Origin: Octopus vulgaris
Lineage: Eukaryota
Reading direction: 5' to 3'
Length of the DNA stretch: 64,000 nt
Assembly (NCBI GenBank): GCA_951406725.2
Contig: OX597840.1
Location: forward strand, 31,186,001-31,250,000
This document shows, piece by piece, positions 4,271-56,890 of this stretch (position 1 is the stretch's first letter; each line of letters starts with the position of its first letter). Both the position numbers and the translations under genes were made by a program. The notes under the pieces were generated by a model. That model was given only the letters and a program-made list of their open reading frames with translations, was not told where the DNA came from and did no database searches.

Positions 4271-45594
<41,324 letters not shown>

Positions 45595-46486: not shown

Positions 46487-46569
46487 TATTTCATACATAT
46501 AGATGCATATGTATATACATATATAATTGTATATATATATATATATATATATATTTATTATATAGAAGG

Positions 46570-46620
46570 AGCTTCTACAGGACTAGTACTGTTTCATTCA
46601 AGAGAAATCTTCAGGAAGCT
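46570..46620 (-). ncRNA. type I hammerhead ribozyme in the Penelope pLTR
   Basis: Reverse complement of the 50745-50795 motif. Confidence 0.85.
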
Positions 46621-46994
46621 ATTTAACAAGAATTGTATTAGCATTTATACATTTAGGCAGGTTTAAAGGAGTGGTGGTGGGGGACTTTTTGGGGGTAGGC
46701 ATAGCGCAAAATATCATACTTGGGGGAGTGGTCAAGGAGTCAGTGGTAAGTTAGATGAAAGAATAAATAAATAAAAAAATAAAAAAATAAAAAATAAATA
46801 AAAAATAAAAAAATAAAAAAATAAAAAATATAAAAAATATATATAAAAAAATATATATATAAAATATATATATAAAAAAATATATATATAAAAAAAGGGG
46901 GGATAGAGTTATAGGTAAATAAGGAGATTCTCACTTATACCTATACACACATGTATACGTATCTACACACACATACATACACACACATATATAT

Positions 46995-47037
<43 letters not shown>

Positions 47038-47190
47038 CATATGTACACACATACATACATATCTACATACACACATACATACACCCGCCCACATATACAA
47101 ATTTATACACATGCACATGCCTATACCTGTCTACACATACACACACGTATATATGCATACACTCACTCCCATGCATGCACGCATACACAC

Positions 47191-47227
<37 letters not shown>

Positions 47228-47925
47228 CACGACCACACATACATATATACACATAAAAATATATATTCATACGCACATACACTCATGCACACACAACACA
47301 CCTAGTTCCCTATATACACATATTTACACCTATATATACATACACCCACATACACCTATGTACACATATATATATATAAACATATACACGCATACATATA
47401 TATACATGTGTGCACATACATACATACACACATATATACATACACATACACATACACATGTGTACCTATACATACCTACACATACACACATACATACATA
47501 CAAATATACATATACATATATATATATACAATCCAATACAGGCCCATTCCCTAATTTTAATTTTATTATCTTCATTTATTACTTTTGTTATCTTTGATCG
47601 CTAGGGCTAAGAATCCTGGCAATGGCTGCATGTCCATTTGTCTGTCTACTAGAAGGCAAGTACTCATTCCCGCACGCACACTCATTAGCACGTACATTCA
47701 CCCATTCGTACACTCATACACATACACGTACTCACGCGTTATATTCATACATACAAACATCTACATACGTTCACGTATATACACATACGTACTCGTACCT
47801 ACAGATTCGTGTCTACACTTTAGGAGGCTAGTCTATACATATACACCAATAAATATACATATATATATATATACCCGCATATACATACACACACACACAT
47901 ATATACTCCTACATACAGATACATA

Positions 47926-47975
<50 letters not shown>

Positions 47976-48473
47976 CATACACATACACACATACATATAC
48001 ACACACATACATACACATATATATACATACACAAACATATATACACACATATATATATACATACACACATACACACATACATACGTATACATACATACAT
48101 ACATCCATACATCCATACTTACATGCATTTATACGCATACACACACCCATCTATATATATGTATATATATATATATATATATATACACACTCACACATAC
48201 ATATACAAATCTACGCACACACATACATACATACACGTATACGCATACACGCACATACACATATACATGCGTACCCATACACGTGCACACACGCACGCGC
48301 ATCCATATATATACACACACACACATATATATACACGTGTGCAAGCATACATACATACATACTCATACGCGCACACATACTTACAAATACATATATGCAC
48401 ACACTTACACACATATATATACATACACATATACATGCATACATACATATATGCATACATACACACACGCACT

Positions 48474-48519
<46 letters not shown>

Positions 48520-48582
48520 TATATACATATATAGATATATATACACATACATACACATACACATACATACACACATATACAC

Positions 48583-48619
<37 letters not shown>

Positions 48620-48822
48620 TACATATATACACATATACATACATATACATACACACACACATACATATATACATATACACTGATACACATACCCATACAT
48701 ACACATGCATATACTTATATCACTACATACTCACATATATAAACATATATACATATACACACATACATATATACATGTACATACACATACGTATGCATAT
48801 ATATATATATATACATATATAT

Positions 48823-48869
<47 letters not shown>

Positions 48870-49127
48870 TACATATACACATATACATGTATACATACGC
48901 AAAAATGATACACATATATACACATACACACACACAGACAGATGCATATACATACATATATATATATAAACTACATATCTATATAAATACATACATAATA
49001 CACATATACACACACATATATATACATTCATGCATATACATATACAAGTATACATACACATACATACACACACACGCGCACACATACCTATACACACACA
49101 CATATACAAATACATACATACACACAT

Positions 49128-49163
<36 letters not shown>

Positions 49164-49529
49164 ACATGTACACATATACATATGTATATATATATCAACA
49201 AGGGAGGGTAAAGTTAATTAGTTATTAATCAATTTCATCAAGTGTTCAGTATGTAAAGGGACCATTATTATTTTGAGTAAACAATGTTAGAGGGAAAAAA
49301 ATTCTCTAAGTAGTGGAAGAGGCTAAAAAACTTTATTGGCTGCTATTTCTAGAAAGTTTAGTATGTGGCAAAGTAATTTATTTTATTTTCCTAAGCCCTA
49401 ATTATATAATATTTTATACATACATACACATACATAAGCACATACATTTACACATACATATGCATATACATATATACACATATACATACAAACACATATA
49501 CACATATACACACACACACACATACAAGC

Positions 49530-49574
<45 letters not shown>

Positions 49575-49814
49575 AATATATATACATATATATTTTTACA
49601 TGCATACATACACACACACACACATAATACATGCGTATATTCCTACTGTACCCATGCATTTCTATACATATATACATACATACATACGATACACATATAC
49701 AAGCGTGCACATATAATATGTGAAAGGTCTTAGGAGAAAAGGTAATCGGGGGTGCTAGGGGAACAGTGGGGTTGGGGGGGGTTGTAGGGGGGTTGTAGGG
49801 GGGGGGGGTTGTCA

Positions 49815-50432
49815 TCAATCAGGTTGCCGGGTAGGTCTATAGTTCTTGTAGTTCGCATACTTCTTATGCATGCAATTTGGGGAGTGTTCTGAAAATTTGT
49901 TAAGGAGAGGGCCTTTGGCGAACAAGATCTCTAGGCTCTCTGATATGCATAGGTCACAGCAGGTATGTCCTCCTGTGTACGAGCGCGCCTTCTGTAGTAG
50001 TTTCCACTTGGTCTTGAAGGGGATTGAGTTCCTTTTAAGGTACCAGATGTGGGCGGCGAGGGTAGTTTGGTTGGATTTATCCTGTCGCCGGAACGAGTGT
50101 GTATGTGCATACCAGCGGGTCTTAAAGCTGTTTGACGTCATTCCAATGTAGGATTTACTTTTATCGTCAAGGCCTGATCTTACCTCGCATTTATATACTA
50201 GGTCCCTCTGTAGGCAGTTGTTGTTGAGGGGGCAGGTGGTTTTATCATGGCAGTTGCAATTGCTATCGGACGTTGGATGGGCCCCGGAGAAAGTAGATAT
50301 GTTAAGTTTTTTCACATTGTTGTTGGCTAGGTTCCTGGCTAGGTTGGGCGTGGTAGAGTAGGAGAGTCTAATAGTGTTCTTATTTAGGATAGTGTAGTAC
50401 TTATGTTGGGTGGGGAAGTGTTTCTGTAGGAG
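49815..50432 (-). CDS. Penelope-like element C-terminal linker + GIY-YIG endonuclease (uninterrupted but 5'-truncated)
   Basis: LLQKHFPTQHKYYTILNKNTIRLSYSTTPN...CNC...CPLNNNCLQRDLVYKC...SYIGMTSNSFKTRW..H..SF...LAAHIW.LK...CDLCISE...LLNK...CMHKK*; LVY...YIG, catalytic R/E/N pattern. The CNC-CPL-C signature recalls Nematis-type PLEs (from memory). Confidence 0.88.
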   Translation of the reverse strand, partial: LLQKHFPTQHKYYTILNKNTIRLSYSTTPNLARNLANNNVKKLNISTFSGAHPTSDSNCNCHDKTTCPLNNNCLQRDLVYKCEVRSGLDDKSKSYIGMTSNSFKTRWYAHTHSFRRQDKSNQTTLAAHIWYLKRNSIPFKTKWKLLQKARSYTGGHTCCDLCISESLEILFAKGPLLNKFSEHSPNCMHKKYANYKNYRPTRQPD

Positions 50433-50744
50433 AGAATCTCCTTATTTACCTATAACTCTATCCCCCCTTTTTTTATATATATATTTTTTATATATATATT
50501 TTATATATATATTTTTTTATATATATTTTTTATATTTTTTATTTTTTTATTTTTTTATTTTATTTTTTTATTTTTTATTTTTTTATTTTTTTATTTATCT
50601 ATTCTTTCATCTAACTTACCACTGACTCCTTGACCACTCCCCCAAGTATGATATTTTGCGCTATGCCTACCCCCAAAAAGTCCCCCACCACCACTCCTTT
50701 AAACCTGCCTAAATGTATAAATGCTAATACAATTCTTGTTAAAT

Positions 50745-50795
50745 AGCTTCCTGAAGATTTCTCTTGAATGAAACAGTACTAGTCCTGTAGAAGCT
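50745..50795 (+). ncRNA. type I hammerhead ribozyme in the inverted Penelope pLTR
   Basis: AGCTTC-CTGAAGA-tTTC tctt GAAt-GAAACAG tactagtc CTGTA-GAAGCT; predicted cleavage after 50789 (GUA). Confidence 0.85.
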
Positions 50796-50878
50796 CCTTC
50801 TATATAATAAATTAATTTTACTCTGCTATGTATTGAGTACCTTACTTACTGTGGTTAACCCCGAATCAACCCGGGACC

Positions 50879-50936
<58 letters not shown>

Positions 50937-53849: not shown

Positions 53850-53908
<59 letters not shown>

Positions 53909-53964
53909 GAAATATTAAAATTACTAAGTCTCTATAAAAGAGATTATGGCAGCGTTTACTGGAA

Positions 53965-54398
53965 ATTAATTGTTATCGCCATATTAATATGGCATTCTTA
54001 TAGATATAAGATTAATCGCTGCCATGGTCAGCTCCATGAGGCCACCGCCATCAAGATAGCTATTGATACACGATCTGTATCCATTATAACCTTCGAACAA
54101 GGGAGGTCAGCCGCTTCACACTGCCAGTCCGACAGCTACAGACGCGTTTCGGGGTATTGCCCCTTGTCAATGTAGCGCAGTCAGACCCGCAGGTGTCGCC
54201 ACTGACGTCTCTGTTCGAAGGCTTATATTTACCTAGTTTCAGTGTGAAGCGGCTGACCTCCCTTGTTCGAAGGTTATAATGGATACAGATCGTGTATCAA
54301 TAGCTATCTTGATGGCGGTGGCCTCATGGAGCTGACCATGGCAGCGATTATTCTTATATCTATAAGAATGCCATATTAATATGGCGATAACAATTAAT
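53965..54398. mobile_element. short Penelope-like insertion forming a 159-bp inverted repeat around a hammerhead
   Basis: Arms 53965-54123 and 54240-54398 are almost perfectly complementary. Confidence 0.8.
54135..54176 (-). ncRNA. minimal hammerhead ribozyme, U3-A8 variant
   Basis: GCTACA-TTGACAA-GGGG caata CCCC-GAAAC GC GTC-TGTAGC; all stems perfect, palindromic stem III ACGCGT. Confidence 0.82.
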
Positions 54399-54408
54399 AT
54401 ATATATAT

Positions 54409-54829
54409 ACTCTTTTTACTCTTGTTACTTGTTTCAGTGATTTGACTGCGGCCATGCTAGAGCACCGCCTTTAGTCGAGCAACTCGACTCCGGGACTTAT
54501 TCTTTGTAAGCCCAGTACTTATTCTATCAGTCTCTTTTGCCGAATCGCTAAGTAACGGGGACATAAACACAGCAGCATCGGTTGTCAAGCAATGCTAGAG
54601 AGACAAACACAGACACACAATCACACACACAAACACATACACATATATATATATATGCATATATACGACAGGCTTTCTTTCAGTTTCCGTCTACCAAATC
54701 CACCCACAAGGCTTTGGTCGGCCCGAGGCTATAGTAGAAGACACTTGCCCAAGGTGCCACGCAGTGGACCGAACCCGGAACCATGTGGTTGGTAAACAAG
54801 CTACTTACCACACAGCCACTCCTGCGCCT
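54409..54829 (-). mobile_element. SINE family B
   Basis: Reverse copy. Confidence 0.85.
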
Positions 54830-55095
54830 ATGTATGTTTCTGAATTTGGAGAAAAGTGTCATCTACAGGTGGCGCAGCTGCTTTATTTAATGGCAACTGC
54901 TTCTGACACCATTTTCGAAACATTTTGAAAGACAAGAAAAAGCAAACTTCTCTTGATACGATTCGAATGAAACGACATGTGTGAAAAATGGAGAAGTCTG
55001 TCCAAAAAGCGCAAATTAAGCGGAGTGCGAAAACGCTTGGGATTATTGTTCTTCCTCAAGTCTTAACGGAAGGAGATTCTCCTCCCAAACAATAA

Positions 55096-56890
55096 TCCAC
55101 CTCCTTCCGCTCCATCCTCTTCCTTGCGCTCCACCCTCCTCCTTCAGCTCCACCCTCCTCCTTCCGCTCCACCCTCCTCCTTCCGCTCCATCCTCTTCCT
55201 TCCGCTCCACCCTCTTCCTTCCGCTCCACCCTCTTCCTTGCGCTCCACCCAATTCCTTCCGCTCCATCCTCTTCCTTCCGCTCCATCCTCTTCCTTCCGC
55301 TCCACCCTCTTCCTTCCGCTCCATCCACTTCCTTCCGCTCCATCCTCTTCCTTCCGCTCCACCCTCTTCCTTCCGCTCCACCCTCTTCCTTCCGCTCCAC
55401 CCAATTCCTTCCGCTCCATCCTCTTCCTTCCGCTCCATCCTCTTCCTTCCGCTCCATCCTCTTCCTTCCGCTCCATCCTCTTCCTTCCGCTCCACCCTCT
55501 TCCTTGCTCCATCTTCTTGCGCTCCATCCTCTTCCTTGTGCTCCATCCTCTTCCTTCCGCCCCATCCTCTTCCTTCCGCCCCATCCTCTTCCTTCCGCCC
55601 CATCCTCTTCCTTGCGCTCCATCCTCTTCCTTCCGCTCCATCCTCTTCCTTCCGCTCCATCCTCTTCCTTCCGCTCCATCCTCTTCCTTCCGCTCCATCC
55701 TCTTCCTTCCGCTCCACCCTCTTCCTTCCGCTCCATCCTCTTCCTTCCGCTCCATCCTCTTCCTTCCGCTCCACCCTCTTCCTTGCGCTCCATCCTCTTC
55801 CTTGTGCTCCATCCTCTTCCTCCCGCCTCATCCCCTTCCTTCCGCTCCATCCTCCTCCTTCCGCTCCATCCTCCTCCTTCCGCCCCATCCCCTTCCTTCC
55901 ACTCCACCCTCTTCCTTGCTCTCCATCCCCTTCCTTGCGCTCCATCCTCTTCCTTGTGCTCCATCATCTTCCTTCCGCTCCATCTTCTTCCTTCCGCCCC
56001 ATCCTCTTCCTTCCGCTCCATCCACTTCCTTCCGCTCCATCCTCTTCCTTCCGCTCCATCCTCTTCCTTCCGCCCCATCCTCTTCCTTCCGCTCCATCCA
56101 CTTCCTTCCGCTGCATCCACTTCCTTCCGCTCCATCCTCTTCCTTCCGCCCCATCCTCTTCCTTCCGCCCCATCCTCTTCCTTCCGCTCCATCCTCTTCC
56201 TTCCGCTCCACCCTCTTCCTTCCGCTCCATCCTCCTCCTTCCACTCCATCCTCTTCCTTCCGCCCCATCCTCTTCCTTCCGCCCCATCCTCTTCCTTCCG
56301 CTGCATCCTCTTCCTTCCGCTCCATCCTCTTCCTTCCGCCCCATCCTCTTCCTTCCGCCCCATCCTCTTCCTTCCGCCCCATCCACTTCCTTCCTCCCCA
56401 TCCTCTTCCTTCTGCTCCATCCTCTTCCTTCCGCTCCATCCTCTTCCTTCCGCCCCATCCTCTTCCTTCCGCCCCATCCACTTCCTTCCGCCCCATCCAC
56501 TTCCTTCCGCTTCATCCCCTTCCTTCCGCTCCATCCTCTTCCTTCCGCCCCATCCTCTTCCTTCCGCTCCATCCTCTTCCTTCCGCCCCATCCTCTTCCT
56601 TCCGCCCCATCCCCTTCCTTCCGCTCCATCCTCTTCCTTCCGCTCCATCCTCTTCCTTCCGCTCCATCCTCTTCCTTCCGCTCCATCCTCTTCCTTCCGC
56701 TCCATCCTCTTCCTTGTGCTCCATCCTCTTCCTTCCGCCCCATCCACTTCCTTCCGCCCCATCCACTTCCTTCCGCTCCATCCCCTTCCTTCCGCTCCAC
56801 CCTCCTCCTTCAGCTCCATCCTCTTCCTTTCGCTCCATCCACTTCCTTCCGCCCCATCCTCTTCCTTCCGCCCCATCCACTTCCTTCCGC
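55096..56890. repeat. 19-bp pyrimidine/purine minisatellite (CTCCATCCTCTTCCTTCCG)n, about 90+ units, running into an assembly gap
   Basis: 19-nt period; explains the long ORFs in all frames. Confidence 0.95.

What the first reader, a model, noticed from the sequence alone, without database searches (positions are those of the whole stretch)
54135..54176. Pristine U3-A8 hammerhead at the centre of a 159-bp hairpin
Seen: a minus-strand hammerhead with perfect stems I and II and core UUGACAA, lying between almost perfectly complementary 159-bp arms (53965-54123 / 54240-54398). Inference: a very recent, short Penelope-type insertion whose 3' end was copied in inverted orientation. A transcript would form long dsRNA with a ribozyme in the loop. 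This is the best single candidate for testing activity of the variant core.
Basis: partly seen in the sequence, partly recalled or inferred. Interest (0 to 1): 0.72.

Follow-up and report, generated by a model that had tools for sequence, protein, structure and literature searches.

The report
Ordinary copy of a ribozyme repeat
This hairpin is one of hundreds of copies of a 363-base non-coding repeat that carries a predicted self-cutting hammerhead RNA (a known class, retrozymes); its mirror-image shape is the family's usual insertion form and likely records a Penelope-type jumping-gene enzyme copying the RNA onto both DNA strands from two fixed start points.

Summary
The hammerhead and the 159-bp arms are real, but the locus is not special. 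It is a 496-bp insertion (53903-54398) of a 362-363-bp tandem, non-coding repeat. The genome holds 213 exact copies of the 34-nt core. U3-A8 is family-wide, and no canonical-core copy was found. The hairpin is the normal product. In a sample chosen without regard to hairpin or ribozyme, 43 of 74 insertions are inverted, and 38 of those 43 pair one fixed short end with one fixed long end 62 nt further on. Target duplications of 12-14 bp flank whole units, and inner joints vary. This is the Penelope 'tail' footprint, and an autonomous Penelope-like element in the same window shows it too. No parent with a homologous terminal repeat was found. Truncations do not cluster at the predicted cut (2 of 114). 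Natural U3-A8 cores are already in print and reported active in vitro. This single-ribozyme copy is a poor test substrate; tandem copies are better. The scan found this family before on other DNA of this genome. Verdict: new member of the non-LTR retrozymes.

The parts
53903..54244 (-). Long arm: monomer positions u1-u342 of the 363-bp unit, ending at the family's 'long' 3' site
   Evidence: 99.4% to the monomer of L022; end class
53903..53964 (-). 62-nt tail between the short (u280) and long (u342) ends; unpaired in the hairpin
53965..54123 (-). Left hairpin arm (u280-u122 of the long arm); differs from the right arm and from the L022 monomer at 54012
54135..54176 (-). Type I hammerhead: stem I 54176-54171 / 54140-54135, core U3-A9 54170-54164, stem II 54163-54151, palindromic stem III 54147-54142, predicted cut between 54141 and 54140
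   Evidence: sequence; folds
54126..54187 (-). Extension of stem I (8 bp beyond a 3x1 bulge), start of a long rod that in the full monomer runs to u22/u157
54240..54244 (.). 5-nt microhomology at the inner joint, shared by both arms (u1-5 and u122-126 are reverse complements)
54240..54398 (+). Inverted arm: u122-u280, ending at the family's 'short' 3' site
   Evidence: 100% to the L022 monomer
53852..53902 (.). (AT)n target tract, left side
54399..54409 (.). (AT)n on the right; its length fits the family's 12-14-bp target duplication, which cannot be proven inside a microsatellite
   Evidence: inference

Best explanation
This is one of hundreds of copies of a 363-bp non-coding tandem repeat with a predicted U3-A8 hammerhead ribozyme (a non-LTR retrozyme), and its hairpin is the family's usual inverted insertion form, likely made by a Penelope-like reverse transcriptase/endonuclease acting in trans. 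Steps: (1, inferred) a tandem locus is transcribed, and the RNA folds into a rod and may be cut by dimeric hammerheads and circularised. (2, shown as a footprint) an AT-rich target, mostly (AT)n, is cut with a stagger of about 12-14 nt. (3, ends shown; priming inferred) each cut strand primes a cDNA on multimeric or circular RNA, one at u~342 and one at u~280. (4, shown as a footprint) the cDNAs stop early, most often at u140-152 at the base of the rod, and are joined, often through a few bases of microhomology (5 nt here). (5, follows from the sequence) this copy has one cut site and lacks u343-363, so it cannot release a unit-length RNA and is probably a dead end. A transcript from either strand would form 159 bp of duplex; only the minus strand carries the ribozyme.
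For: Family: 213 exact 34-nt cores, and 321 with positions 3, 7 and 8 free, of which the 100 listed all have T3/A8. Canonical-core pattern: 0 matches. U3 and A8 in 136 of 136 copies read in fetched loci, partly selected by the core. Tandem period 362-363 with no ORF between units. Ends: 64 of 75 two-arm loci pair a short with a long end. In the loci of the mid-unit pattern, 43 of 74 are inverted and 38 of 43 pair short with long. Target duplications of 12-14 bp at 13 distinct non-microsatellite loci. Arm overlap of 3 nt or more at 33 of 75 joints, against 5.5% for random pairs (BLAST extension inflates this). 20 of 215 arms cross two or more cut sites. The circular monomer folds at z -9.4, 0 of 100 shuffles as good. 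Within-genome comparison: an autonomous PLE-like element at window 46553-50890 has a short end, a long end about 70 nt further, (AT)n flanks and an inverted 5' copy. Papers: PMC11167929 (two internal RT start sites define the tail; both strands cut), PMC8557442 (inverted copy, tail at one end), PMC7229834 (retrozyme features).
Against: No autonomous element with a homologous terminal repeat among three PLE families examined; the best local alignment with the in-window PLE tail is at chance level (87 of 500 shuffles). No footprint of cleavage: 5' ends within 3 nt of the cut are 2 of 114, with 2.2 expected. Rfam does not recognise the motif. Covariation is weak: 3 of 84 predicted pairs change on both sides, covariation term -0.62, none in the hammerhead stems. 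The tail is 62 nt, longer than the 30-40 bp described for PLEs. The PLE label of the comparison elements rests on motifs read by eye, since Pfam and PDB searches found nothing above cut-off. 28 of 74 insertions show only one arm.
Confidence: 0.82

Rival explanations
1. The copies are 5'-truncated stubs of the terminal repeat of an autonomous PLE that I did not find, not an independent non-coding element.
For: The insertion anatomy is that of PLEs. U3-A8 cores occur in Cercyon PLE terminal repeats. My searches score only the best candidates (40 of 1804). One locus joins u102-285 to a PLE ORF.
Against: Units repeat head to tail every 362-363 bp, up to about 3.6 units, with nothing between. The 5' flanks of single-arm loci are unrelated to each other by eye. 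The ORF junction is a one-off: none of the 24 other fetched copies of that PLE carries the unit there. Two same-strand pairs kilobases apart held a LINE insertion and an (AT)n duplication, not a PLE ORF.
Confidence: 0.1
2. The 434-bp hairpin is a MITE or fold-back DNA transposon with 159-bp terminal inverted repeats that captured a ribozyme.
For: Near-perfect long inverted arms in an AT-rich target. One inner joint (u147/u113) recurs at four loci and its neighbour at a fifth.
Against: The ends are asymmetric because of the 62-nt tail. This locus's joint (u1/u122) occurs once among 75, arm lengths run from 27 to over 1100 nt, and either arm can hold tandem units. Duplications are 12-14 bp. The recurrent joint occurs with different arm lengths, as microhomology would give.
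Confidence: 0.02
3. The element is copied by a LINE (L1/Tx1-type) enzyme, and the inversion is ordinary twin priming.
For: Inverted 5' segments with microhomology and duplications of this size are known for L1 (recalled). An intact L1/Tx1-type LINE exists in this genome.
Against: There is no poly(A) or repeated 3' tail. The second site is fixed rather than scattered, and the two arms overlap in sequence. The same two-end pattern is seen on a PLE-like element of this genome.
Confidence: 0.04
4. The hairpin is a sequencing or assembly fold-back, or a later rearrangement of a plain insertion.
For: Fold-back chimeras next to (AT)n tracts occur in long-read data (recalled). I could not inspect reads over this locus.
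Against: Fixed, paired outer ends and target duplications around whole inverted units are not expected from chimeras. The arms differ at one base and only one carries the tail.
Confidence: 0.02

Closest known systems
Metazoan non-LTR retrozymes (Cervera and de la Pena 2020, PMC7229834, passages read; Li et al. 2026, bioRxiv 10.64898/2026.07.22.740005, abstract, introduction, part of the methods, discussion and search passages read)
   Same: Non-coding tandem monomer of 170-400 nt, one canonical type I hammerhead per unit, strongly self-paired, target duplications longer than 4 bp, coexisting with PLEs.
   Different: The core is U3-A8 throughout. More than half of the insertions are inverted with two fixed ends, which word searches of these two papers did not find described ('inverted' 0 times in PMC7229834; once, in a reference title, in the preprint). 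Circular RNA is not shown here. No homologous PLE terminal repeat was found.
Penelope-like element insertions with inverted pLTR and tail (Craig et al. 2021, PMC8557442, passages; Frangieh et al. 2024, PMC11167929, main text to the start of Methods)
   Same: Partial tandems, an inverted 5'-truncated copy, a tail at one end only, AT-rich or (TA)n targets, and two RT start sites.
   Different: No ORF; the tail is 62 nt rather than 30-40 bp; the unit is a complete tandem monomer.
U3-A8 hammerheads (Cervera and de la Pena 2014, PMC4209133, parts 1-2 of 4 read; Perreault et al. 2011, PMC3088659, passages)
   Same: The same compensatory core pair. About 1,300 hits in Schistosoma with Cercyon PLEs; dual ribozymes on opposite strands 100-700 bp apart were also noted there. 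Perreault et al. state such ribozymes had been proven active in vitro, citing a paper I could not read.
   Different: Here the ribozyme has canonical helix sizes (6-bp I, 4-bp II, palindromic III), not the minimal form, and sits in a retrozyme.

Membership tests
Type I hammerhead ribozyme | Core C3UGANG8A...GAAA...UH with a 3-8 Watson-Crick pair | tested here: met
   U3-A8 pair, other core positions canonical; fixed in the family
Type I hammerhead ribozyme | Stems I and II | tested here: met
   6 bp and 4 bp perfect; no compensatory change seen in them
Type I hammerhead ribozyme | Stem III, as a monomer or through a palindrome in a dimer | tested here: inconclusive
   The monomer stem would close a 2-nt loop, which the energy model forbids; the 6-nt palindrome duplex is -7.5 kcal/mol; palindrome intact in most copies (126 of 136 identical over the 7 nt)
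Type I hammerhead ribozyme | Match to an Rfam hammerhead model | tested here: not met
   No match at E<=10; this tests the library model, not the defining chemistry
Type I hammerhead ribozyme | Self-cleavage after GUC | not testable with these tools
   No raw RNA reads were served; no genomic truncation footprint
Non-LTR retrozyme | Tandem non-coding monomer of 170-400 nt with one type I hammerhead per unit | tested here: met
   362-363 bp period
Non-LTR retrozyme | No LTR and no coding capacity; low GC (<50%) | tested here: met
   No terminal direct repeats; only short frames and about 42% GC, both read by eye from the monomer; PBS and PPT not searched
Non-LTR retrozyme | Target duplication longer than 4 bp when visible | tested here: met
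   12-14 bp at 13 loci
Non-LTR retrozyme | Highly self-paired monomer | tested here: met
   z -9.4, 65% paired as a circle
Non-LTR retrozyme | Abundant circular RNA in vivo | not testable with these tools
   Only assembled contigs of runs guessed to be RNA
Autonomous Penelope-like element | RT plus GIY-YIG ORF between pseudo-LTRs | tested here: not met
   No ORF in or between units; the candidate long loci resolved otherwise
Penelope-type insertion footprint | Inverted 5'-truncated copy, tail at one end, AT-rich target | tested here: met
MITE | Symmetric terminal inverted repeats, uniform size, short fixed duplication | tested here: not met

The most novel reading that the evidence does not exclude
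The family is direct genomic evidence that an animal retrozyme is copied by a Penelope-type enzyme. A dimeric enzyme would prime both strands of one cut at two fixed internal sites of a circular RNA, and it would recognise those sites by shape or a short AT-rich motif rather than by homology to its own terminal repeat. That would make the proposed retrozyme-PLE partnership testable with one RNA and one protein from the same genome.
Probability: 0.45. Interest if true: 0.52.

Novelty: new member of a known kind. Interest (0 to 1): 0.3.

Why it matters
The locus itself matters little: it is a probable dead-end copy. The family is more useful. The papers I read propose, but do not show, that PLEs mobilise animal retrozymes. 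Here the insertions carry the Penelope two-site footprint, and a young PLE-like family with at least one open 722-residue frame (L229) is at hand for an in vitro test. A family with a fixed U3-A8 core in an otherwise canonical ribozyme also suggests that this core is tolerated in a spreading element, though cleavage may not be needed for spreading.

Tried and rejected
Cleavage footprint: I tested whether 5' truncations pile up at the predicted cut (u104/105). They do not (2 of 114 within 3 nt, 2.2 expected; 8 in u100-113, 4.4 expected, p 0.07). The pile-up is at u140-152 (24 of 114, 4.1 expected). The uniform expectation is rough, because the sample requires u197-229.

Parent search: five long loci were checked. 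L061 holds a LINE, and L062 a duplication in (AT)n. L063 joins a unit fragment to the start of an unrelated PLE. L064 and L065 showed no RT frame. Three PLE families had no homologous terminal repeat (24, 30 and 30 loci); the one strong hit, L193, is a unit inserted in (AT)n beside a PLE fragment. A Pfam family id recalled for PLEs is not in the library. A looser core pattern with a base other than A before U3 gave 7 matches, all with this family's stem II.

Expression: no RNA holder is on record. Two runs guessed to be RNA and two of unknown kind hold the unit as contigs. This is no evidence for or against transcription or circles.

Insertion polymorphism was not tested: both flanks are microsatellite or repeat, and only contigs were served.

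Papers not held: Lunse et al. 2017 and Przybilski and Hammann 2007. I opened no supplements; those of PMC7229834, PMC4209133 and the 2026 preprint might show inverted retrozyme insertions. The Atlas look-up of the PLE frame was unavailable.

Full report
Observation. On the minus strand, 54176-54135 reads a type I hammerhead: a 6-bp stem I, core UUGACAA, a 4-bp stem II with a 5-nt loop, GAAA, a 6-nt palindrome and GUC. It was the only hit of my motif scan of both strands of the window. The arms 53965-54123 and 54240-54398 match at 158 of 159 positions. The 42-mer folds better than shuffles (z -2.61), but stem III does not form in the minimum-energy structure, and as a monomer it would close a 2-nt loop. 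These helix sizes are those described for canonical metazoan type I hammerheads, which cleave as dimers (PMC4209133). Rfam gave no match.

It is one copy of a family. The genome (2.8 Gb, animal; cephalopod-like by its repeats, which is my impression and untested) holds 213 exact copies of the 34-nt core region and 321 when positions 3, 7 and 8 are left free. All 100 listed have T3 and A8, and only position 7 varies. A canonical-core pattern finds none. In fetched loci U3 and A8 stand in 136 of 136 copies, a count that is partly circular because many loci were found by the core. Contigs of four runs labelled as four organisms list variation at position 7 but none at positions 3 or 8 at 5% or more. 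The unit is a 362-363-bp tandem monomer (u1-u363, numbered from window 54244 downward) with at least two subfamilies about 86% alike. As a circle the monomer folds into a long rod around the ribozyme plus a branched half (z -9.4, 0 of 100 shuffles). Covariation support is weak (3 of 84 pairs).

The real extent here is 53903-54398: u1-342 on the minus strand, joined to u122-280 on the plus strand through a 5-nt overlap at 54240-54244. The copy is 99.4% identical to its five nearest relatives among 65 near-full arms: young, but not exceptional.

The hairpin is the family's normal insertion form. Of 139 fetched loci with matches I dropped 16 duplicates and set aside 11 complex ones. Of the remaining 112, 75 have two arms pointing outward, and 64 of these 75 pair an end near u280 with an end near u342. 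That set is biased toward hairpins by the first query. I therefore also scored the 73 loci that hold the 100 listed (of 103) matches of a mid-unit pattern needing neither ribozyme nor hairpin. They contain 74 insertions: 43 inverted (38 short plus long), 28 single-armed and 3 complex (L012 was classed by hand). Where the target is not a microsatellite, a 12-14-bp duplication flanks the whole inverted unit at 13 distinct loci (the scan covered the two-arm loci including duplicates, total not printed; lengths include chance overlap with the ends). Both arms therefore come from one event. Inner joints vary, this locus's joint occurs once in 75, and 33 of 75 overlap by 3 nt or more against 5.5% for random pairs (BLAST extension inflates the observed figure). 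These results exclude a MITE.

Mechanism. This anatomy matches what is described for Penelope-like elements: partial tandems, an inverted 5'-truncated copy, and a tail at one end only (PMC8557442). A purified PLE protein cuts both strands of AT-rich DNA and starts reverse transcription at two internal sites that delimit the tail; ribozyme cleavage was not needed for insertion in vitro (PMC11167929). I infer that each cut strand primes one cDNA, at u342 and at u280, on multimeric or circular RNA, and that the two cDNAs stall and are joined. The 5' ends pile up at u140-152 (24 of 114), at the 11-bp helix that closes the rod, and not at the predicted cut (2 of 114, 2.2 expected). 20 of 215 arms run through two or more cut sites. 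The genome thus gives no footprint of cleavage; an uncut multimer and a circle fit equally. This locus has a single cut site and lacks u343-363, so it cannot yield a unit-length RNA. A minus-strand transcript is predicted to keep stems I and II in the hairpin loop, but it would need a second molecule for stem III.

Partner. I found no parent. One locus joins u102-285 to the start of a young PLE-like frame, but none of the 24 other fetched copies of that element has the unit there, and the element has its own terminal repeat with a canonical core. Two further PLE-like families showed no homology. One of them lies in this window (46553-50890, minus strand). It has a CUGAAGA hammerhead-like motif, (AT)n flanks, a short end and a long end about 70 nt apart, and an inverted 5' copy; at L227 it forms a miniature hairpin of the same design. 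Its short site shares a brief AT-rich stretch with the unit's short site, but the alignment is at chance level (87 of 500 shuffles). It shows that this footprint is made by PLE-like elements in this genome; it is a candidate, not a proven, mobiliser. Its PLE label rests on RT and GIY-YIG-like motifs read by eye (recalled), since Pfam and PDB found nothing above cut-off.

Comparison and novelty. The element meets every testable feature of non-LTR retrozymes (PMC7229834); circular RNA and cleavage could not be tested. U3-A8 cores are in print for Schistosoma Cercyon PLEs and other natural ribozymes, and are reported active in vitro (PMC3088659). That PLEs mobilise retrozymes is proposed. I did not find the two-end inverted footprint described for retrozymes in six library searches or in word searches of the two retrozyme papers; supplements were not seen. 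After reaching this reading I found that the scan had reported a 363-nt and a 359-nt U3-A8 family with the same features elsewhere in this genome, and similar ones in other genomes; those notes are not independent evidence. Verdict: new member of a known kind, with the locus ordinary within its family; interest 0.30.

Noticed in passing
window 46553-50890 (-): A truncated copy of a very young PLE-like family (150 scored matches at 95-100% protein identity). It has an inverted 5' repeat, short and long ends, a CUGAAGA hammerhead-like motif, and a 3' region of about 2.9 kb made largely of (TA/TG) microsatellite-like sequence that is copied with the element.
   Followed up: partly
L229:5745-7910 (+): Open 722-residue frame of that family with RT and GIY-YIG-like motifs, not recognised by Pfam or PDB searches; most other copies seen are frameshifted.
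   Followed up: partly
L063:1483-6944 and L121: A unit fragment starting at u102, next to the predicted cut, is joined into the start of another young PLE-like family. It lies within a 1.1-kb inverted duplication that includes host sequence.
   Followed up: partly
L061:2036-7003 (-): An L1/Tx1-type LINE with two open frames (zinc knuckle; endonuclease plus RT) inserted within an array of the second subfamily.
   Followed up: partly
L069:1175-1614: Two u122-282 arms facing inward (tail to tail), the opposite of the usual arrangement.
   Followed up: no
L168:245 (-) and 3035 (+): A pair of canonical-core hammerhead-like motifs in opposite orientation near a PLE fragment, from another family.
   Followed up: no
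window 7129-7347: A separate near-perfect hairpin whose arms hold TTAGGG-like repeats.
   Followed up: no
window 54952-56500: A 19-bp minisatellite array just right of the locus.
   Followed up: no
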